A stretch of DNA of 64,000 bases from Candidatus Eiseniibacteriota bacterium (GTDB lineage Bacteria; Eisenbacteria; RBG-16-71-46; CAIMUX01; VGJL01). This document shows positions 53,130 through 59,937 of this stretch, piece by piece; position 1 is the first letter of the stretch; each line of letters opens with the position of its first letter. A program made the translations under genes and the position numbers. Under the pieces are notes generated by a model that was given only the letters and a program-made list of their open reading frames with translations, did not search any database and was not told the origin of the DNA. The stretch lies in the NCBI GenBank assembly GCA_041946735.1, contig JBHGAY010000028.1, forward strand, positions 1 through 64,000, given 5' to 3'.

Positions 53130-55883
53130 ATGATGAAGCGCGTCTGGTTGGTCTTGGCGATCGCCGGTCTGGTGCTGGCCTTCGCATGCGAGAAGAACGA
53201 CGATGTCACCAACCCCGACGACACGGAAGACGGCGGCGGGATCGCCCCGGACGAGATCGATTTCGCCCGGACCTTCCCTCCCTTGCTCGCGAACGGCGCC
53301 GACGCGGTGCAAGTCGTGGCGACCGTCGTCGACTCGCGCGGCCGTGGCCTTTCCGGCGTGAAGGTGAACTTCTCCACGACGGAAGGGACGATCGACGGCT
53401 TCGCGCTGTCCGGCGACCGGGGCAAGGCGATCGCGACCCTGACGAGCGAAGCGTCGGCCGTCGACCTCGTGGCCACCGTGACGGCCGAGGCGAGCACGAG
53501 CCCGGTCGGGCAGGTGCAGGCAGAACGGGTCGACGGGGCGGCGGAGGGCGCGGGCGAAAGCGCGGGCGAGAAGCCGATCGTCCTGCTCTCCAACCAGCCG
53601 CTGAGCGGCGACGCGGTCGCCGCGGCGCTGCGGGCGCGCGCGGCGAAGCTCTCGAGCGGGCCGGAGGCGGTCGCAAGCGGCACGGCGTTGACGGCGGCCG
53701 CCGGCACGATCTCCGACGAGGTCCAGGTGCCGATGCTCGGCCTCACCCTCGCCCTGCGCGCCGACCCGGCCGCGCTCCCCGGCGACGGCATCCGGTCCAG
53801 CCGGATCGAGGCGAAGCTCCTCGAGACGACGCGGCGCGTGCCGGTCTCGGGTCAGGAGATCCGCTTCGGAACGACCGCCGGCACCATCACCGGCGCCATC
53901 GCGACCGACGAGTCGGGGATTGCCGAAGCCACGTTGACGAGCGAGCCGGGCGCTGCGTCGGCCGCGGTGACCGCCTACTACGGCGGCGATATGACCGCGA
54001 CCGTCACCGTCCCGTTCGAGGCGCTCGCCTTGACGTTGGAAGCGTCGAGCCCCGAGATCCCGGCCGACGGCGTGTCTGAGGTGCAGGTGGCGGCTCGCCT
54101 GCGCACGGCGAGCGGCGCCGCGGTCACGAACGCCCGGATCGAATTCACGACGACGCTCGGCACGATCGGCTCTCCGGTTGCGACCGACGAGGGCGGGGTC
54201 GCCCTCACCTCCCTGCGAGCCGGCAGCGCGACCGGCACCGCGGCCGTTCGCGCCAGCTTCGGCGAGGACCTCACGCAGTCGGTCGCCGTGACGTTCACCC
54301 AGCCGCCGGAGACGGCATCGCTTCTCTTCCACGCCGACCCTGTGGCGCTCGCCGCCGACGGCATCAGCGAGAGCCGGCTGATCGCCGACGCGCTCGACGC
54401 GGATGGCAACCCGATGCGCGACGGAACAGTCGTGGTTTTCTCGATCGTCTCGGGCGGCGGCCAGATCGTCTCCCCCGTCGCCGCGACCAGCGGCGGCCGC
54501 GCCGAGGCCACCTACGTCGCGGGAACGACCGCCGGCGACGTGCGCCTGCGGGCGACGTCGGGCGCCGCGCAAGCGGAAGAAGTCGTCCAGCTCGCGGCAT
54601 CCGGACCGGGCGGGCTCATCCTCGAGACCGAGCCCGGCCCGAGCATCCTTGCCGACGGCCTCGAGTGGACGGAGATCCGCGCGACCGTCACCGACCGCTT
54701 CGGCAACCCCGTCCCGGCCGGGACCGCGGTCGACTTCTCGACGAGCCGCGGCGTCCTCTTCGACGCCCAGCCGACCGACGCTTCCGGCGTCGCCACCGTC
54801 CGCCTGCGCTCCGAGCGCTTCGTGACGGGAACGGCCCGCGTGATCGCCAAGGTCGGCTCGCTGCAGCAGGTCCTCGACGTCCGGTTCGTGTCGGAAGCCG
54901 GGGCCCACGTCGAGGCGCTGAGCGCCCAGCCGCCGGCCATCGGGGTCCGCGGCGCCGGCGATCACGAGACGTCGACCGTGATCTTCCAGGTGCAGGACCG
55001 TCACGGCATCCCGGTCGACGAGGACCACGCAGTCGTGCTCGACTTCCATCTCGAGCAGCCTCAGAACACCGACGCGACGCTCTATCCGGAGTCGGCGGCG
55101 ACCGACGCGCGCGGCCTTGCCTGGACGACCGTGAACGCCGGCTTCCGCTCCGGAACGGTCGGGATCGCGGCGACGTCCGGTTCGCTCTACGGCGAGCCGA
55201 TCTTCGTCGCCATCCACGGCGGGAAGCCCGACGAGCGGCACTTCTCCATCTCCTTCGAGCGGCTGAACATTGCCGGGTTGGTCTACGACGGCATCCGCAA
55301 CGCGATCACCGCTCGAGTCGGCGACCGCTGGGGCAACCCGGTCCCCGACTCGACCCGCGTCTGGTTCCGCGCCGAGTACGGTCTCATCCAGGGGAGCGAG
55401 GGAAGCACCGAGTTCGGCGAGGCTACGGTGCAGGAGATCACAGCCGGGCCGCATCCGCAGATCCCGGGCGGAGACGGCCTGGTGCTCCTCACGGCGCAAA
55501 CGGTCGACAGCACGGCCCAATGGATCGAGACCGCCGGCCACGTCATGTGGTCGGGACCGACGATCGTCGAGATCCTGGAGCCTTCCAACGGGTTCGACAT
55601 TCCCAACGGCGGGTCGATCAACATCACCTATCGCGTGCGCGACGCGAACTTCAACCCGCTGGTCGGCGGAACGTCGATCACCATGTCCGCCACGGCGGGA
55701 GAGCTGGGCGGCGACGTCGGTTTCACCCTCCCGGACACGCAGAGCCGCAGCTACACGATGTTCGGCGGCACCCTGAGCGACGACGATCCGGAGACGAACG
55801 AGCCCGAGAGCGTCACGATCACCGTCACCGTCACGAGCCAGAACGGGAACCGAGCCGCGAGGGTGACAGGCATCAAGCATTGA
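53130..55883 (+). CDS. Invasin/intimin-like lipoprotein with tandem bacterial Ig-like (Big_1) domains, 917 aa
   Basis: Lipobox 'LAFA-C'. About 6-7 repeats of '.ADG......ATV.D..GNP...V.F.T..G......TD..G.A...L'. Confidence 0.85.
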   Translation: MMKRVWLVLAIAGLVLAFACEKNDDVTNPDDTEDGGGIAPDEIDFARTFPPLLANGADAVQVVATVVDSRGRGLSGVKVNFSTTEGTIDGFALSGDRGKAIATLTSEASAVDLVATVTAEASTSPVGQVQAERVDGAAEGAGESAGEKPIVLLSNQPLSGDAVAAALRARAAKLSSGPEAVASGTALTAAAGTISDEVQVPMLGLTLALRADPAALPGDGIRSSRIEAKLLETTRRVPVSGQEIRFGTTAGTITGAIATDESGIAEATLTSEPGAASAAVTAYYGGDMTATVTVPFEALALTLEASSPEIPADGVSEVQVAARLRTASGAAVTNARIEFTTTLGTIGSPVATDEGGVALTSLRAGSATGTAAVRASFGEDLTQSVAVTFTQPPETASLLFHADPVALAADGISESRLIADALDADGNPMRDGTVVVFSIVSGGGQIVSPVAATSGGRAEATYVAGTTAGDVRLRATSGAAQAEEVVQLAASGPGGLILETEPGPSILADGLEWTEIRATVTDRFGNPVPAGTAVDFSTSRGVLFDAQPTDASGVATVRLRSERFVTGTARVIAKVGSLQQVLDVRFVSEAGAHVEALSAQPPAIGVRGAGDHETSTVIFQVQDRHGIPVDEDHAVVLDFHLEQPQNTDATLYPESAATDARGLAWTTVNAGFRSGTVGIAATSGSLYGEPIFVAIHGGKPDERHFSISFERLNIAGLVYDGIRNAITARVGDRWGNPVPDSTRVWFRAEYGLIQGSEGSTEFGEATVQEITAGPHPQIPGGDGLVLLTAQTVDSTAQWIETAGHVMWSGPTIVEILEPSNGFDIPNGGSINITYRVRDANFNPLVGGTSITMSATAGELGGDVGFTLPDTQSRSYTMFGGTLSDDDPETNEPESVTITVTVTSQNGNRAARVTGIKH

Positions 55884-56070: not shown

Positions 56071-57264
56071 CTACACGAACCTCTCCCGCAGCCGCCGCGC
56101 AGCGGCCGTCATGCTCCTGAGCTTCGCCGCCGCCGTCTCAGCGTCGTTGACGCAGCGCTGGGCGAAGCAGCCGAAGCCGCAGTCGGGATTCAGGAAGACC
56201 CGCTCGGGCGGGAAAAAGGCGAGCGCCTCCGCGACTCTCGCGACGATCTCCTCGACCGTCTCGACCGCGTCGGTCCGCGGGTTGACGACGCCGAGGCCGA
56301 TCTCCCGCCCCGCGAGCGCCCGGCCGACCACCTCGAACTCGCCCGCGCGCGGCGTGGCGTACTCGAGAACGAACTGGTCGACCCGCATCCGCTGGAAGGC
56401 GGGAAGGAGCGGGGTGTAGTCGCCGCTCAACAGCACCGACTCGTCCCGGCTCCAGTTACCGCGACAGACGTGGAGGCCGATCCGCGGGCGCGACCCGGGG
56501 CCGGCGCCGAGCGGGCCGCGGTCCATGGGAGTCACGACGCCGTCGATCACCCGGTTCAGCAAGTCGGCCGCGTATTCCAGCTCCGTGCCCGCGTCCCGGC
56601 GGGTTGCGAGCGTCGCTCACATGAAGGTGCGGCGTTCACAGTCCTCCGACAGGACGATCTCCGTCAGCACCGGCTCGTCGAACTGGACGAACTCGCAGCC
56701 GGCCGCGGCGAGATCGAACAGCTCCTCGCGCAGGATCCGGACGACGTCGTCCCCCATCTCGGTCTTGTCGCGATAGGCGGCGCCCGAAAACGCGCCGACC
56801 CACATTGCGCGCGTCAGCAGATACGGGCCGGGAAGGGTGATCTTGACCGGCTTGTCGGTCAACGTCCGGAGGAATGCGAGGTCCCCGGCGGCGAGCGGCT
56901 CGCGCCGCGCGAGGCGCCCCACACAGGTCGGGTTGCGGATCGAGGAGGCGGGGACGTCGAGGGTGTCGAGCATCTCCTCGAACGCCGCCTTGTCCTCGAC
57001 GGTGTCGAGCATCTCGGCGAGCGACATCAGACGCGTCCCTTCGAGCTTCTCCGTGACGAAGGAGTAGAAGTTGTCGCGGCGGATTTCGCCGTCGACGACC
57101 ACGTCCACCCCCGCATCGTGCTGCGCAGCGACGCAGGCGGCGATCTCGCGACCAGCGATCTCGTCGAACTGCTCCCGCGACATCCGTCCGCGCTGCTTCT
57201 CTCGCAGCGCCGCGAGAAGCTCGCGCGAGCGCGGCCAGCTTCCGACCTGGGTCACGTCGAACAT
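56071..57264 (-). CDS. Cobalamin-independent methionine synthase II (MetE C-terminal-like) family protein with in-frame TGA (probable Sec216), 397 aa
   Basis: RBS GGAGG before ATG 57264. 'GSWPR', 'DGEIRR', 'KITLPGP', 'QFDEP', and Zn ligands 'LHVCRGN', 'LEYA', 'NPDCGFG'. ORFs 56617..57348 and 56071..56562 are in the same frame, joined through TGA 56617-56619 (RTFM-U-ATLA). Confidence 0.88.
56581..56616 (-). promoter_or_regulatory. Candidate bacterial SECIS element for the MetE-like gene
   Basis: TGA-GCGACGCTCGCAA-CCCGC-CGGGAC-GCGGG-CACGGAG. The apical loop follows 18 nt after the UGA and has G at loop position 2. Confidence 0.65.
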
Positions 57265-57276
57265 GCGATCCTCCGT

Positions 57277-57379: not shown

Positions 57380-58147
57380 TCACAGAATCACCAGCTTGCA
57401 CGAAAGCGCGGTCGCCCGCGCGAGCGTGACGGCGACCGGAGAGCGGGCGACCGTCCGCTCCCATGCCTCGCGCACCGCCGCCGGCTCGGCGCCGGTCGAA
57501 GCGAAGCACTTCACATCGACCTGCGCGAGCCCCGGGTCCCCTTCGCCCAGGCCGAGCGGGGCAAGCGGGTTGCCCAGACGCCCACGGACCGTCAGCTCCA
57601 CGTCGTCGACGTCGAGGCCGGAGCGCCCGCACTCGGTAGCGAAGCCGCTCGCGAGCGCGGCGCCAAGGGATCCGAGCAGAAGCTCGACGGCCGAAGGGTG
57701 GGCGTCCTTCTCCTCGAAGCTCGCCGGCTGGCCCCCGTGGAACGAGAAGTTCCGGCAGTAGACGGTCGAGCGCTGCGGCCCCGACGCCCGCACGCGCAGC
57801 CGCCACTCGTACGACTCCGCCTTCCGCTTGTCGGCCGCGAGCGCTTCGGCTTCCTTCTCCGCGACCGCACCGCTCCCCTTGCGGACGAAGTAGCGCACCC
57901 CGCTCGCGTTTCCGCCGCCCGGCAGCGCTCCGAGGAACTGGTGCCCGACCATCCGGCACCACGGCGGCAGGTCGTCCCGGACCGTCGGCTCGCGCGAGCG
58001 CATCTCGAGGATCCCTCCTTCGGGGACCGCGAGCATCTGCTCGCGGATCAGAAGGACGAGCCCCGACCCGCAGTCCAGATCCCCGCCGTCGAAAACCCGG
58101 TCGGGACGGAGCCGCTCGAGAGATTCGGGAGATTCCTCGCCCGCCAT
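57380..58147 (-). CDS. TusA/SirA-like sulfur-carrier domain fused to an OsmC-like domain, 255 aa
   Basis: 'FDGGDLDCGSG...DDLPPWCRMVGH' (TusA-like) and 'HPSAVELLLGSLG...RSPVAVTL' (OsmC-like, Cys-less). RBS GGAGGG. Confidence 0.85.
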   Translation of the reverse strand: MAGEESPESLERLRPDRVFDGGDLDCGSGLVLLIREQMLAVPEGGILEMRSREPTVRDDLPPWCRMVGHQFLGALPGGGNASGVRYFVRKGSGAVAEKEAEALAADKRKAESYEWRLRVRASGPQRSTVYCRNFSFHGGQPASFEEKDAHPSAVELLLGSLGAALASGFATECGRSGLDVDDVELTVRGRLGNPLAPLGLGEGDPGLAQVDVKCFASTGAEPAAVREAWERTVARSPVAVTLARATALSCKLVIL

Positions 58148-58163: not shown

Positions 58164-58529
58164 TCAGTAGGAGATGCAGGGAGTCCCGCCGGAGAGGAAC
58201 TCGACGAGCGCCGCTCCCCCGGCCGGCGTCGCTCCGGCGATCAGCCGCTCCGGCTCAATCGAGCGCTTCTTCATGCAAGGGGTGCAGACGAGGATCGTCC
58301 CGCCTCCGGCGACGAACTTGTCGACCAGCTCCTTCAGCGGCGCGAACGGCGCGCCTTCGTTCACCTTCTCGTATTCCCCCTGGACGGCGGCCCAGACGCC
58401 GTCGGTCGAGAGGAAGACCATCGTCTCCTTCTCGCTGCCAAGGGCGGCGTTCGCGACGACAAAGCCGACGGTCGCGGAGTCGCCGTTCTCCTTGCAGCGG
58501 GTGATCGAAACGCAGAACTTCTCGCTCAT
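58164..58529 (-). CDS. DsrE/DsrF-like sulfur relay protein, 121 aa
   Basis: RBS AGGAGA and ATGA overlap. 'VVANAA', 'VFLSTDGV', 'ILVCTPCMKKR'. Confidence 0.88.
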   Translation of the reverse strand: MSEKFCVSITRCKENGDSATVGFVVANAALGSEKETMVFLSTDGVWAAVQGEYEKVNEGAPFAPLKELVDKFVAGGGTILVCTPCMKKRSIEPERLIAGATPAGGAALVEFLSGGTPCISY

Positions 58530-58831
58530 GGTCGGTTCTCCTCCTTTGATGGTGGCCGGCCGGGGGTCGCTCCCCCGTGGCCGGGACGGACACGGACCAG
58601 ATAGAACGGGTGACGCGCATCGAGCAGCTCGTGCCCCGTGACGCGGCACCAGGCGCGCATCTCGACCGGCGCCCCCGGATCGCGCGCGAGGATCGCGACG
58701 CGCGCGCCGGGCGGCAGCGGCCGGAAGTGGATCCGGAGATCGATCAGGATCTCGCCGCAGCCGGTGTCCCGGCCATCGAAGCGGGAGTCCGGGCGCCAGT
58801 CGGACGGCATCTCTTCCCATCCCGCCATCAT
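58526..58831 (-). CDS. TusA family sulfurtransferase/sulfur carrier, ~101 aa
   Basis: 'FDGRDTGCGE...DPGAPVEMRAWCRVTGHEL'. ATGA overlaps at both ends. Confidence 0.85.
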   Translation of the reverse strand: MMAGWEEMPSDWRPDSRFDGRDTGCGEILIDLRIHFRPLPPGARVAILARDPGAPVEMRAWCRVTGHELLDARHPFYLVRVRPGHGGATPGRPPSKEENRP

Positions 58832-59937
58832 TCCGCCGTCGACTCCCCCGGCGCGGCCGGGTTCGGGCCGAACCTCCAGGCGGCCGAGAGCTGGAGCGTC
58901 CACTCCTGCACGTTGCCGCCGTTCTGTTGCACATTCCGGTAGACGGTCAACGGCACGGTCGCCGAGAGCGAGATGTCGTCCCGCGGCGACCAGTCGAGCC
59001 CCGGACCGACGAGGACGATCGGTCCGGCGCGCCGGAACCCCTCCGTATCGCCGATCAGGTCGTCGTACGGGACCCAGGCGACGTCGGCCACGGCGCGCGC
59101 GGCGAAGCGGCTCAGCGTCCCGCCGTTCAGACCCAGCAGGCTCCGGAAGGTGACACGCAGCGTCGCGGCGTCGGAGTCGGAGTTCTTCTCGGGCGCCGCG
59201 GAGGCCGGGTTCAGCTCGTGGCGGAAGTTGTTCACGGTCGTGGCGGACGGCGTGAAGACATAGCGCGCCGTCGCGCCGAGGCCGAAGCGCTCGCCGAGCG
59301 GACGGCTGCCTCCCAGCTCGATGATCCCCGCCCAGTTGCCCGTCCCTTCCTGGGCGGCCAGGTCCTTCGTGACGAGCGTGCCGTTCTTCGCGCGGAACTT
59401 CCCATCCGATCTGCCGGTGGGAAGGCGCGCGCCGAGCGAGACGTAGGCGGCGAGCCCCGGCCCGCCGGAGCCGCCGGAGCCGCCGGCCGCGAACCAGTAG
59501 CGAGCGAGCAGGCGGATGTCGCCCAGGCCGTTCGCCTGCATGTTGCCGGCGACACCACCGAACTCGCGGCTCTGCTCGTTGTGGACGAACGGGACCTCCG
59601 CGGCCACGGTGAATCGCTCGGAGAGGTCGTACTCGGCGGAGATCAAATGCTCGATCCCGAGGGTGGCGGGAGCGACGTTCGTCTCGGTCGCATCATCGCG
59701 CTCCTCACCGATGTAGTAGTGGTCGGTGTCCGAGTAGGTGAACCCGTACCCGAGTCGGAGCGAGCCGGGCAGATTGGCGTGCTGGATCTCCCCGACGGGG
59801 AGCGAGACCGGCACTCACCCACAGCCGCCGGCGAGCGCGCGGATCGGAACGGCGACGAGAGCGAGCGAAAGCGAGAGCGCGGCGAGTCTCGCGAGACTCA
59901 TGAGTCCCGAGAGTCTCGAGATCTTCTTGTTGCACAT
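58828..59937 (-). CDS. Outer-membrane beta-barrel (MetA-pathway/'transporter'-like) with N-terminal C-x-U motif (probable Sec41), 369 aa
   Basis: RBS GGAGG before ATG 59937. Signal peptide MCNKKISRLSGLMSLARLAALSLSLALVAVPIRALA, then GG-C-G-TGA(59815-59817)-VPVSLP in frame with the 58828..59814 ORF. Barrel motifs 'AAEVPFV', 'GLGDIRL', 'GARLPTG', 'QEGTG'. Confidence 0.82.
59785..59814 (-). promoter_or_regulatory. Candidate bacterial SECIS element for the barrel gene
   Basis: TGA-GTGCCGGTCTCG-CTCCCC-GTC-GGGGAG-ATC. Perfect 6-bp stem with a GU-starting loop that follows 18 nt after the UGA. Confidence 0.7.

What the first reader, a model, noticed from the sequence alone, without database searches (positions are those of the whole stretch)
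56581..56619. Selenocysteine candidate in a MetE-like enzyme outside the canonical Zn ligands
Seen: ...CERRTFM-TGA-ATLATRRDAGTELEYAADLLNRV... reads seamlessly in frame. The HxC, E and C zinc ligands remain intact downstream, so U216 would be an additional reactive residue in an insert after 'DEP'. From recollection, unverified, homologs carry 'RTFMC'. Inference: a selenol acting as methyl/alkyl acceptor, fourth Zn ligand or relay site, meaning the enzyme may not be a true methionine synthase.
Basis: partly seen in the sequence, partly recalled or inferred. Interest (0 to 1): 0.82.

Follow-up and report, generated by a model that had tools for sequence, protein, structure and literature searches.

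The report
Selenocysteine codon in MetE-like enzyme
The apparent stop codon inside this methionine-synthase-like gene is almost certainly read as selenocysteine, so databases wrongly record a widespread, unstudied selenium enzyme encoded beside sulfur-carrier genes as a truncated gene.

Summary
On the minus strand, a 397-codon MetE-like gene (57264..56071) has one in-frame TGA at codon 216 (56619..56617).

Evidence that this TGA encodes selenocysteine:
- It aligns with an invariant Cys (motif RTFMC) in 119 of 120 full-length homologs.
- The same TGA is present in 74 of 80 related species genomes, whose record titles name about ten phyla.
- A hairpin, ACCCGC-CGKGAY-GCGGGU, starts 12 nt after the TGA. 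Its codons are the most codon-fixed synonymous sites in the gene.
- The genome encodes tRNA-Sec, SelA, SelB and a Sec-containing SelD.
- Both halves of the protein are equally conserved.

I therefore read it as a genuine selenocysteine codon (about 0.9).

The residue lies outside the intact Zn ligands (H265, C267, E301, C362), in a low-confidence loop on the catalytic face. In 63 of 68 Sec loci with enough flank, the gene follows DsrE-like and TusA-OsmC genes, and a further TusA-like gene lies nearby.

The function is unknown. My best inference (about 0.35) is a redox or sulfur-relay nucleophile, not housekeeping methionine synthesis, because a canonical MetE exists elsewhere in the genome. 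I found no published description. Two earlier notes of this scan describe the same operon in other genomes.

The parts
56071..57264 (-). Sec-containing MetE-like gene: 397 codons, single PF01717 catalytic barrel, TAG stop at 56073..56071, ATG at 57264
   Evidence: Read-through translation. Pfam PF01717, 123.8 bits. AF2 model with pLDDT 88.8, whose best Foldseek hits are the T. maritima MetE catalytic barrel. Orthologs are 60-81% identical over the full length.
56617..56619 (-). UGA codon 216, read as selenocysteine
   Evidence: Aligns to Cys in 119 of 120 homologs. TGA is in the same column in 74 of 80 loci. The genome has Sec machinery.
56605..56616 (-). 12-nt spacer between the UGA and the hairpin (codons 217-220, A-T-L-A)
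   Evidence: The amino acids are invariant, but the third positions vary freely: 13-23 of 28 ortholog pairs differ.
56587..56604 (-). Putative SECIS hairpin: 5' arm ACCCGC (56604..56599), loop CGGGAC (56598..56593), 3' arm GCGGGC (56592..56587). In this window the outermost A/C does not pair, leaving 5 bp.
   Evidence: Paired in 98.2% of 456 cells across 76 distinct sequences. Stem codons 225 GCG, 222 CGC, 221 ACC and 226 GGT are the four most codon-fixed of 108 conserved fourfold-or-more degenerate columns. The hairpin is absent from the 12 Cys-form loci examined.
57269..57274 (-). GGAGGA ribosome-binding site 4 nt upstream of the ATG
   Evidence: Read directly from the sequence. Orthologs start at the same MF(D/E/T)VTQVGSWPRS.
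57380..58147 (-). TusA-OsmC fusion gene (255 aa), directly upstream
   Evidence: Pfam OsmC 42.1 bits; TusA 20.1 bits, below its cut-off. Cys26 and Cys64 are invariant in 68 sequences. Directly upstream of the enzyme gene in 63 of 68 Sec loci with enough flank.
58164..58529 (-). DsrE-like gene (121 aa) with invariant C7 and a C83-x-x-C86 motif
   Evidence: Pfam DsrE 41.9 bits. Conserved cysteines. Conserved position in the operon.
58526..58903 (-). TusA-like gene (start codon uncertain). Its TGA stop overlaps the DsrE ATG as ATGA.
   Evidence: Pfam TusA 27.2 bits, just below the 28.6 cut-off. Cys49 and Cys86 are conserved in 40 and 39 of 40 sequences. A separate TusA-like gene is present in all 63 operon loci, 50 upstream and 13 downstream.

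Best explanation
The gene encodes one full-length 397-residue selenoprotein.

Proposed decoding: during translation, UGA216 is decoded by Sec-tRNA(Sec) delivered by SelB. SelB is recruited by a small hairpin inside the ORF that begins 12 nt after the UGA.

The protein is a single-barrel, Zn-dependent member of the MetE catalytic-domain family. It keeps all four Zn ligands and the three homocysteine-binding residues. It carries selenocysteine at a family-invariant Cys, in a mobile loop inserted after the DEP strand on the catalytic face.

The gene is the last of a four-gene unit: TusA-like, DsrE-like, TusA-OsmC, Sec-MetE-like. This unit recurs in many phyla.

Shown here:
- recoding signature
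- RNA-level selection on the hairpin
- presence of the Sec machinery
- equal purifying selection on both halves of the protein
- operon linkage

Inferred, about 0.35: residue 216 is a catalytic nucleophile or redox relay. It would work with the clade-specific Cys366/Cys371 next to Zn ligand C362, and would exchange sulfane sulfur or reducing equivalents with the cysteine carrier proteins while a homocysteine- or methionine-type substrate sits at the Zn site. On this reading the enzyme is not the housekeeping methionine synthase.
For: Recoding:
- The TGA sits at a column that is Cys in 119 of 120 homologs.
- Within the window's phylum (206 genomes searched, 21 with a match), 8 genomes of one order carry exactly one TGA, all at this column. 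Twelve more distant matches carry no TGA; the nine with the motif in reach carry TGC (8) or TGT (1).
- Across species genomes, 74 of 80 loci have TGA and 6 have TGC/TGT.
- A tree places all Sec forms in one 88-row clade (support 96) with Cys forms nested inside it. It needs about 6-7 Sec/Cys switches, as is usual for Sec/Cys families.

Translation continues through the TGA:
- N-half and C-half identities are alike: 72-79% against 71-85%.
- Residues 217-226 are invariant, while spacer codons vary synonymously.

Hairpin:
- It is invariant in all Sec forms and absent from Cys forms.
- Of 127 conserved degenerate columns in the 8 order-level orthologs, only 5 use a single codon, and 3 of those 5 are stem codons.
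- In 63 genes from many phyla, the four most codon-fixed of 108 columns are hairpin codons at 100, 100, 98 and 90%, against a median of 51%.
- The only three stem changes are C to U and keep G.U pairing.
- Nested Cys forms have lost the Ala-Gly that the 3' arm encodes, reading DAS, DPG or DPA instead.
- The genome's own Sec-selD has the same 12-nt spacing and a GGGA loop.

Machinery: tRNA-Sec with anticodon TCA, SelA, SelB, and SelD with one TGA. SelA was found in 7 of the 8 other Sec-type genomes tested, counting G017; the miss is 75% complete.

Not an assembly error: an independent DNA run has the identical sequence.

Operon: 63 of 68 Sec loci with enough flank have it, against 0 of 6 Cys loci.

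Not the only MetE: a canonical MetE is found on contig C24.

Clade-specific cysteines: Cys366 is present in 63 of 63 Sec forms and 24 of 24 nested Cys forms, against Thr in 90 of 91 sister-clade rows.
Against: - There is no direct evidence of selenium in the protein or of read-through.
- The 86-nt region after the TGA folds no better than shuffled sequence (z = 0.60).
- The hairpin is short: 5 bp in this window and 6 bp in most relatives.
- By the same rule, such a hairpin follows 6.5% of ordinary Cys codons in this genome (142 of 2194). The hairpin alone is therefore weak evidence.
- The stem is so conserved that no pair shows compensatory double changes (0 of 6). The structure is supported by conservation, not by covariation.
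- The window's loop reads CGGGAC, not the CGUGAY of most relatives.
- Rfam has no match.
- Sec looks dispensable in evolution. Cys forms are nested in the Sec clade, and one relative (G017) has a 1-nt deletion at the codon.

Against the functional part:
- The loop holding residue 216 is modelled with low confidence (pLDDT 55-72), and no distance to Zn could be obtained.
- The OsmC cysteines of the fusion are only partly conserved (39 and 56 of 68).
- The link between Sec and the operon rests on few independent events, because the 6 Cys loci fall in two clades.
Confidence: 0.88

Rival explanations
1. The gene is a pseudogene or a split gene. On this reading the TGA is a real stop, and either only the 215-residue N-terminal piece is made or the two halves are made separately.
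For: Gene callers treat it this way. Of the 120 best database matches to the N-terminal half, 119 are 215-236-residue proteins ending in RTFM. One relative (G017) is frameshifted at the site.
Against: - The TGA is kept at one column in 74 of 80 species-level relatives that are only 60-81% identical.
- The C-terminal half, which holds all four Zn ligands, is as conserved as the N-terminal half.
- The ten residues right after the TGA are invariant. There is no start codon before codon 235, which is TTG here and CTN in most orthologs.
- Half of a TIM barrel would lack either the substrate residues or the metal residues.
Confidence: 0.03
2. The TGA is a sequencing or assembly error, or a strain-private nonsense mutation.
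For: The window comes from a draft genome of 72 contigs.
Against: An independent run from another study has the identical sequence over 56350-56889. The same codon appears in dozens of other assemblies.
Confidence: 0.01
3. The UGA is read through without selenocysteine, either by a reassigned code (Trp or Gly) or by near-cognate suppression that inserts Cys or Trp.
For: The frame is open under any code that reads TGA as a sense codon.
Against: - Only 46 in-frame TGAs with coding-like flanks exist in 4.9 Mb.
- TGA ends ordinary genes here, for example the TusA-like gene and the C11 gene examined.
- The homologous residue is Cys, the usual counterpart of Sec.
- A full Sec machinery is present, and a conserved hairpin sits at SECIS distance.
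Confidence: 0.02
4. Assuming Sec is inserted, residue 216 is a metal ligand. It would be an extra or alternating (fifth) ligand that caps the Zn in the resting state and is displaced by substrate. It would not be a relay or redox nucleophile.
For: - The residue sits on a flexible loop that follows the strand carrying the substrate-binding D196, so it is on the catalytic face (secondary structure).
- From recollection, MetE zinc is known to change ligands on substrate binding.
- From recollection, Sec serves as a metal ligand in formate dehydrogenase and [NiFeSe] hydrogenase.
Against: All four canonical ligands are invariant. This reading gives no explanation for the clade-specific Cys366/Cys371 or for the linked cysteine carrier proteins. 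No geometry is available.
Confidence: 0.2
5. Assuming Sec is inserted, the enzyme is a genuine folate-independent 'core' methionine synthase. Residue 216 would help accept or pass the methyl group from an unknown donor.
For: The homocysteine-binding S/E/D and the Zn ligands H/C/E/C that define the core synthases in Price et al. 2021 (PMC7857596, sections 10 and 11 read) are all conserved. Sources name the relatives 'methionine synthase II'.
Against: - No NCBIfam methionine-synthase model reaches its cut-off; the best is 169.6 bits against 406.
- The genome already has a canonical MetE.
- No corrinoid protein or MesX partner was seen in the locus.
- A selenoether is a poor methyl donor (chemical reasoning).
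- The partners are sulfur-carrier-type proteins, not methyl carriers.
Confidence: 0.15

Closest known systems
MetE (cobalamin-independent methionine synthase), C-terminal catalytic barrel: T. maritima 1XPG/1XDJ, E. coli MetE
   Same: Same fold: Foldseek E = 3.7e-21 and TM 0.70 on the query. PF01717 match. The Zn ligands H-x-C, E and C and the homocysteine-binding S, E and D are conserved (residue roles from PMC7857596 section 11).
   Different: - Single barrel of 397 residues, with no N-terminal folate-binding barrel (PF08267 scores 20.1 bits, below its 27-bit cut-off).
- About 23% identity.
- An insert after DEP carries RTFM-U and matches no solved chain.
- A selenocysteine, and extra cysteines C114, C366 and C371.
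- Linked to TusA/DsrE/OsmC genes.
Core folate-independent methionine synthases MesA-MesD (Price, Deutschbauer, Arkin 2021; MesD structure 3RPD)
   Same: Single-barrel MetE-like Zn enzymes with the same metal-binding and homocysteine-binding residues. 3RPD is a structural neighbour (Foldseek E = 2.5e-20).
   Different: - Sequence match to 3RPD covers only residues 44-201.
- Curated models are not reached.
- MesX was not found in the genome, but that search had no positive control.
- No Sec is reported for those families in the sections I read.
Cys-containing 'cobalamin-independent methionine synthase II family' homologs with RTFMC (for example P0001 and P0028)
   Same: Same family and length, 55-74% identical, with the same invariant residues. 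Some are nested inside the Sec clade.
   Different: - Cys instead of Sec, and no hairpin.
- The 6 Cys loci with flanks lack the TusA/DsrE/TusA-OsmC unit.
- They sit beside OsmC, an acyl-CoA-dehydrogenase-like gene and a PF12974 binding-protein gene.
- The sister clade has Thr366/Pro371 instead of Cys/Cys.
The other Sec-MetE-like family noted earlier in this scan, with Sec at the H-x-C zinc-ligand position (1YPX/YxjG-like)
   Same: A short MetE-like enzyme with one in-frame UGA that is mis-called as truncated (AI notes, not checked).
   Different: Here the H-x-C cysteine is an ordinary Cys codon (C267), and the Sec lies 51 residues earlier at a position that is not a ligand. 1YPX is only a distant match (E = 2.1e-16).
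Bacterial in-ORF SECIS elements (prototype: E. coli fdhF)
   Same: A hairpin starts 12 nt after the UGA. The loop G and U fall at positions 23 and 24 counted from the U of UGA in most relatives. From recollection, unverified, this is the register of the fdhF loop bases that SelB contacts.
   Different: - Shorter stem (5-6 bp) with no bulged U.
- A 6-nt loop, CGKGAY.
- The window itself has G at position 24.
- No Rfam model exists to test it against.

Membership tests
Bacterial selenoprotein gene (SelB-dependent UGA recoding) | In-frame UGA aligned with Cys in homologs | tested here: met
   119 of 120 homologs have Cys and 1 has a gap. 115 of 115 Cys-form rows have Cys.
Bacterial selenoprotein gene (SelB-dependent UGA recoding) | UGA conserved in orthologs, with the downstream ORF under purifying selection | tested here: met
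   74 of 80 loci have TGA. Both halves are equally conserved. Residues 217-226 are invariant.
Bacterial selenoprotein gene (SelB-dependent UGA recoding) | Stem-loop (SECIS) just downstream of the UGA, with G in the apical loop | tested here: met
   The hairpin starts 12 nt after the UGA. It is paired in 98.2% of cells, and its codons are the most codon-fixed in the gene. Caveats: no covariation, and a chance rate of 6.5% for such hairpins.
Bacterial selenoprotein gene (SelB-dependent UGA recoding) | tRNA-Sec, SelA, SelB and SelD in the genome | tested here: met
Bacterial selenoprotein gene (SelB-dependent UGA recoding) | Selenium found in the protein, or selB-dependent read-through | not testable with these tools
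   Needs 75Se labelling, mass spectrometry or genetics.
MetE catalytic-domain family (PF01717) | Profile match above the curated cut-off, and the MetE barrel fold | tested here: met
   123.8 bits against a 21-bit cut-off. Foldseek top hits are MetE chains.
MetE catalytic-domain family (PF01717) | Zn ligands H-x-C, E, C and homocysteine-binding S, E, D | tested here: met
   H265, C267, E301, C362, S9, E60 and D196 are invariant in 178 rows. Equivalence to E. coli H641/C643/E665/C726 and S433/E484/D599 is partly from the phmmer alignment and partly from motif position (PMC7857596 section 11).
Canonical two-domain MetE (TIGR01371 / PRK05222) | N-terminal folate-binding barrel and a full-length score | tested here: not met
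   TIGR01371 scores 99.5 bits against 929.95. PF08267 is below its cut-off. A separate canonical MetE is on contig C24.
Core methionine synthases MesA-MesD | Match to the curated short methionine-synthase models | tested here: not met
   The best is NF003317 at 169.6 bits against 406. All nine listed models are below their cut-offs.
Core methionine synthases MesA-MesD | MesD partner MesX (DUF1852), or a corrinoid methyl donor nearby | tested here: inconclusive
   PF08908 was not found in the 94.8%-complete genome, but the search rang in none of the 14 control genomes. No such gene lies in the operon.
Core methionine synthases MesA-MesD | Methionine synthase activity | not testable with these tools
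   Needs an enzyme assay or complementation.
Sec-MetE-like family with Sec at the H-x-C Zn ligand (earlier notes of this scan) | UGA at the H-x-C cysteine | tested here: not met
   C267 is an ordinary Cys codon. The only TGA is codon 216.

The most novel reading that the evidence does not exclude
Residue U216 is the catalytic centre of a chemistry not yet described for the MetE/UroD superfamily. On this reading, a zinc-and-selenium enzyme holds a homocysteine- or methionine-type substrate at the Zn site. It uses the selenol, resolved by Cys366/Cys371, to transfer sulfane sulfur (or selenium) or reducing equivalents. The dedicated TusA-like, DsrE-like and TusA-OsmC cysteine carriers would serve it. 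That would make the four-gene unit a self-contained, horizontally spread sulfur/selenium amino-acid module and not a methionine synthase.
Probability: 0.35. Interest if true: 0.85.

Novelty: new variant of a known kind. Interest (0 to 1): 0.68.

Why it matters
- **A new selenoprotein family.** It would add a selenoprotein family in an enzyme superfamily (MetE/UroD) that is not in any selenoprotein list I could search. The Sec sits at a position that is not a metal ligand, which points to a second reactive centre beside the zinc.
- **Widespread mis-annotation.** Of the 120 best database matches to the N-terminal half, 119 stop at RTFM. At E <= 1e-40 there are 2227 such short clusters. Metabolic reconstructions therefore either miss the enzyme or call it a broken methionine synthase.
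- **An unusually clear SECIS example.** The hairpin is nearly identical across genomes whose titles name about ten phyla. It also dictates two amino acids (Ala-Gly) of the protein.
- **A testable hypothesis.** The fixed partnership with TusA-like, DsrE-like and OsmC-like proteins suggests unstudied sulfur or selenium chemistry. Two cultured Desulfopila strains carry the operon, so it can be tested at the bench.

Tried and rejected
- **Thermodynamic test of the 86 nt after the TGA.** Not significant (z = 0.60), so stability alone is not used as evidence.
- **Rfam scan of 56450-56700.** Only one chance-level snoRNA hit at E = 3.1.
- **Covariation.** None, because the stem is invariant.
- **Solved structures containing the insert.** None; querying residues 185-290 gave only chance hits.
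- **U216-Zn distance.** Not obtainable. The structure tool returns no coordinates (one search shows no model file), and the loop has low confidence.
- **Contact between the enzyme and its carriers.** No complex prediction was obtained, so contact between them is untested.
- **Expression.** No RNA holder is listed for the operon.
- **A second 'TGA' in a homocysteine-methyltransferase-like gene on contig C11.** Checked and rejected; it is that gene's ordinary stop.
- **A second ATGTGAGCNAC in L046, L061, L091 and L093.** For L061 I worked out by hand from the coordinates that it is out of frame with the DsrE-like gene, so I dropped it. The others were not checked.
- **MesX (PF08908).** Not found, but there was no positive control.
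- **Conserved genes beyond the four-gene unit.** None present in more than 9 of 80 loci. The largest cluster was an antisense-ORF artefact of my crude ORF picking.
- **Literature.** Six searches (and 28 for the Mes families) found no MetE-like selenoprotein and no description of this operon. Haft & Gwadz 2023 (PMC9879109) is not held. I did not open the supplements of selenoprotein catalogues. A prior description there cannot be excluded.
Full report
**What is in the sequence**

The feature lies on the minus strand. Reading from ATG 57264, preceded by GGAGGA 4 nt upstream, to TAG 56073..56071 gives a 397-codon frame. It is interrupted only by TGA at codon 216 (56619..56617). Standard ORF listing splits it into a 243-aa and a 163-aa ORF.

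**Family and fold**

- The read-through protein matches PF01717 (MetE catalytic domain) at 123.8 bits. It does not match the N-terminal MetE barrel above its cut-off.
- No NCBIfam methionine-synthase model reaches its cut-off. The best is 169.6 bits against 406.
- An AlphaFold model built on 79 sequences has mean pLDDT 88.8. Residues 201-220 drop to 72 and 55.
- Its best structural matches are the catalytic barrel of T. maritima MetE and the short synthases 3RPD and 1YPX.
- By sequence, the solved chains align only up to about residue 202-215 and again from about 286.
- A query of residues 185-290 alone finds no solved relative. The RTFM-U insert therefore has no structural precedent.
- In the model, the insert follows strand 192-196, which carries substrate-binding D196, and a short helix at 199-205. 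That places it on the catalytic face of the barrel. No coordinates are returned, so I could not measure the distance to zinc.

**The column**

Among the 120 best full-length homologs (57-73% identical, 377-432 aa), the column is Cys in 119 and a gap in one. In a 178-row alignment, Cys/Sec216, the Zn ligands H265, C267, E301, C362 and the homocysteine-binding S9, E60, D196 are invariant. The residue roles come from Price et al. 2021, PMC7857596, sections 10-11, which I read.

**Conservation of the TGA**

- In 61 genomes related to the window's genome, 8 (the window's own plus 7) from two families of one order have orthologs 71-81% identical, each with exactly one TGA, all at this column.
- A ninth genome (G017) has lost one base at the codon and is frameshifted.
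- In the whole phylum sample (206 genomes, 21 with a match), the other 12 matches have no TGA. The nine with the motif in reach carry TGC (8) or TGT (1).
- A scan of species-representative genomes returned 80 loci: 74 with TGA and 6 with TGC/TGT.
- Record titles of the Sec loci name:
  - Planctomycetota
  - Verrucomicrobiota
  - Krumholzibacteriota
  - Latescibacterota
  - Fibrobacteraceae
  - Desulfobulbaceae, including the isolates Desulfopila aestuarii DSM 18488 and Desulfopila sp. IMCC35008
  - Eisenbacteria
  - Armatimonadota
  - Acidobacteriota
  - Chloroflexi
- Some of these loci are the same contigs as those, so the counts are not additive.
- A FastTree of 139 rows puts every Sec form in one 88-row clade (support 96) with Cys forms nested in several places. 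It needs 6-7 Sec/Cys changes. One row that I labelled Cys (P0011) in fact has a gap at the site.

**Translation continues through the TGA**

The C-terminal half is as conserved as the N-terminal half: 71-85% against 72-79%. Residues A217-G226 are invariant in 63 Sec forms, yet codons 217-220 vary freely at third positions. The first possible restart codon is at 235 and is CTN in most orthologs. A restart or a two-polypeptide reading does not fit these facts.

**The hairpin**

- Twelve nucleotides after the UGA lies ACCCGC-CGKGAY-GCGGGU. In this window it reads ACCCGC-CGGGAC-GCGGGC (56604..56587).
- It is present in all Sec-type loci and in none of the 12 Cys loci of the phylum.
- In 76 distinct sequences the six pairs are formed in 98.2% of 456 cells. 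The only stem changes are three C to U changes that keep G.U. No pair changes on both sides, so covariation offers no support either way.
- The evidence is at synonymous sites.
  - In the 8 order-level orthologs, only 5 of 127 conserved degenerate columns use one codon, and 3 of those are stem codons 221, 222 and 225.
  - In 63 genes from many phyla, the four most codon-fixed of 108 such columns are 225 GCG (100%), 222 CGC (100%), 221 ACC (98%) and 226 GGT (90%), against a median of 51%.
- Cys forms nested in the Sec clade have drifted from D-A-G to D-A-S, D-P-G or D-P-A. This fits the 3' arm having dictated Ala-Gly.
- The genome's own selD has TGA, a 12-nt spacer and a hairpin with a GGGA loop.
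- A crude genome scan found 46 in-frame TGAs with coding-like flanks, 9 of them with a hairpin. These include AhpD-like CxxU, thioredoxin-like UxxC and glutaredoxin-like UPYC candidates.
- Caveats:
  - The local fold is not more stable than shuffles.
  - The same hairpin rule is met after 6.5% of ordinary Cys codons.
  - Rfam has nothing.
- From recollection only: the loop G and U of most relatives fall at positions 23-24 from the UGA, the register of the E. coli fdhF SECIS.

**Sec machinery and sequence reliability**

- The genome has tRNA-Sec with anticodon TCA, SelA, the SelB wing domain, and SelD with one TGA.
- SelA was found in 7 of the 8 other Sec-type genomes tested, counting G017. The miss is 75% complete. 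It was also found in both Cys-type genomes tested.
- An independent DNA run from a different study carries an identical contig across 56350-56889.

**Gene context**

- Upstream on the same strand lie:
  - a TusA-like gene (58903..58526)
  - a DsrE-like gene (58529..58164), whose start overlaps the previous stop as ATGA
  - a TusA-OsmC fusion (58147..57380)
- Of 68 Sec loci with at least 1400 nt of upstream flank, 63 have DsrE-like then TusA-OsmC directly before the enzyme gene. All 63 also have a separate TusA-like gene, 50 upstream and 13 downstream. The exceptions are L055, L074, L080, L099 and L113.
- None of the 6 Cys loci has the unit. These 6 fall in only two clades, so this amounts to few independent events.
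- The carriers keep invariant cysteines: TusA-OsmC C26 and C64; DsrE-like C7 and C83-x-x-C86; TusA-like C49 and C86. The OsmC-domain cysteines are only partly conserved.
- Cys forms, and a few Sec forms, lie beside an OsmC-like gene, an acyl-CoA-dehydrogenase-like gene and a PF12974 binding-protein gene. This is a set reminiscent of organosulfur utilisation (my inference).
- Nothing else recurs around the unit. In this window the flanks are unrelated surface-protein genes.

**Function**

- The enzyme keeps everything needed to bind zinc and a homocysteine-type substrate.
- The Sec-bearing clade has gained Cys366 (63 of 63 Sec forms, 24 of 24 nested Cys forms) and Cys371 (56 of 63, 22 of 24). 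The sister clade has Thr (90 of 91) and Pro (87 of 91) at these positions. Both lie just after Zn ligand C362.
- The genome has a canonical MetE elsewhere (481.8 bits in an 823-aa frame on C24) and no full MetH.
- I therefore favour, at about 0.35, a reading in which U216 is a redox or sulfur-relay nucleophile. It would work with Cys366/371 and the carrier proteins on a substrate held at the zinc.
- The alternatives are an extra or alternating zinc ligand (about 0.2) and a methyl-handling residue of a true core methionine synthase (about 0.15).
- None of these is tested here. No enzyme-carrier complex prediction was obtained.

**Known or new**

- Searches of the open literature found no MetE-like selenoprotein and no account of this operon.
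- One relevant paper, Haft & Gwadz 2023, is not held. I know it only from a reference list in PMC10418091, of which I read passages. I did not open catalogue supplements.
- Earlier notes of this scan describe the same four-gene unit in two other genomes (e1-6379159, e1-6570602). My own counts agree with them.
- Those notes also describe a different Sec-MetE-like family with Sec at the H-x-C ligand. This gene does not belong to that family.
- Public databases treat the gene as truncated. Of the 120 best matches to the N-terminal half, 119 are 215-236-aa proteins ending in RTFM, and 2227 such short clusters score E <= 1e-40.

**Verdict**

The codon is a genuine, widely conserved selenocysteine codon (about 0.9) in an uncharacterised clade of MetE-like zinc enzymes, with a clear in-ORF SECIS and a fixed set of cysteine-carrier partners. 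The chemistry remains open.

Noticed in passing
G000 contigs C1 (+ strand, offset 159133), C12 (+, 257107), C61 (- strand, offset 2807 on the reverse complement), C38 (+, 703), C45 (-, 122310 and 54016), C67 (+, 12219): Other in-frame TGAs with coding-like flanks and a downstream hairpin. They include an AhpD-like CEY-U motif, a thioredoxin-like U-SG-C motif and a glutaredoxin-like U-PYC motif. Two have GGUC loops 13 nt after the TGA. This looks like a sizeable selenoproteome. The offsets come from my script and were not checked against homologs.
   Followed up: no
L011 (G000:C2), about 2397-2340 on the minus strand: The genome's selD has Sec in the ...MAACAG-U-ASKIAPGD motif. It is followed by a 12-nt spacer and the hairpin GCUCCGG-GGGA-CCUGGAGC. 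The layout matches that of the MetE-like gene.
   Followed up: partly
L022/L024 (G017:C28), at the codon-216 site: One relative reads ATG-AGC-GAC where the others read ATG-TGA-GCG-AC. A single base is missing, so the gene is frameshifted exactly at the Sec codon while the hairpin is still present. This could be recent decay or an assembly or polishing artefact.
   Followed up: no
Protein P0011 (377 aa): This protein is of the Sec type in every other respect: it keeps D-A-G and sits next to the Acidobacteriota Sec forms in the tree. It lacks exactly six residues around the Sec (R-T-F-M-U-A). This could be a real deletion or a gene-model artefact.
   Followed up: no
Loci L025-L032, L056, L060, L067, L094, L101 (Cys forms) and L052, L054, L079, L096, L098, L100 (Sec forms): An acyl-CoA-dehydrogenase-like gene and a PF12974 (phosphonate/sulfonate-type) binding-protein gene recur just upstream of the MetE-like gene or of its carrier unit. 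In several Cys loci a stand-alone OsmC-like gene accompanies them. This hints at organosulfur metabolism for the whole family.
   Followed up: partly
Window 56179..56162 region (codons 362-371, NPDCGFGCFAQRCVN): Cys366 and Cys371, just after Zn ligand C362, are specific to the clade that contains the Sec forms. The sister clade has Thr and Pro. They are candidate resolving cysteines for residue 216.
   Followed up: partly
Window 58526-58529: The stop of the TusA-like gene and the start of the DsrE-like gene overlap as ATGA. This suggests translational coupling within the operon.
   Followed up: no
Window 53130-55883 (+) and 60418-62706 (-): The flanking genes encode a 917-aa protein with Big_1/Invasin_D3 repeats and a 762-aa LVIVD-repeat beta-propeller with a Por-type secretion tail. 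They appear unrelated to the operon.
   Followed up: no
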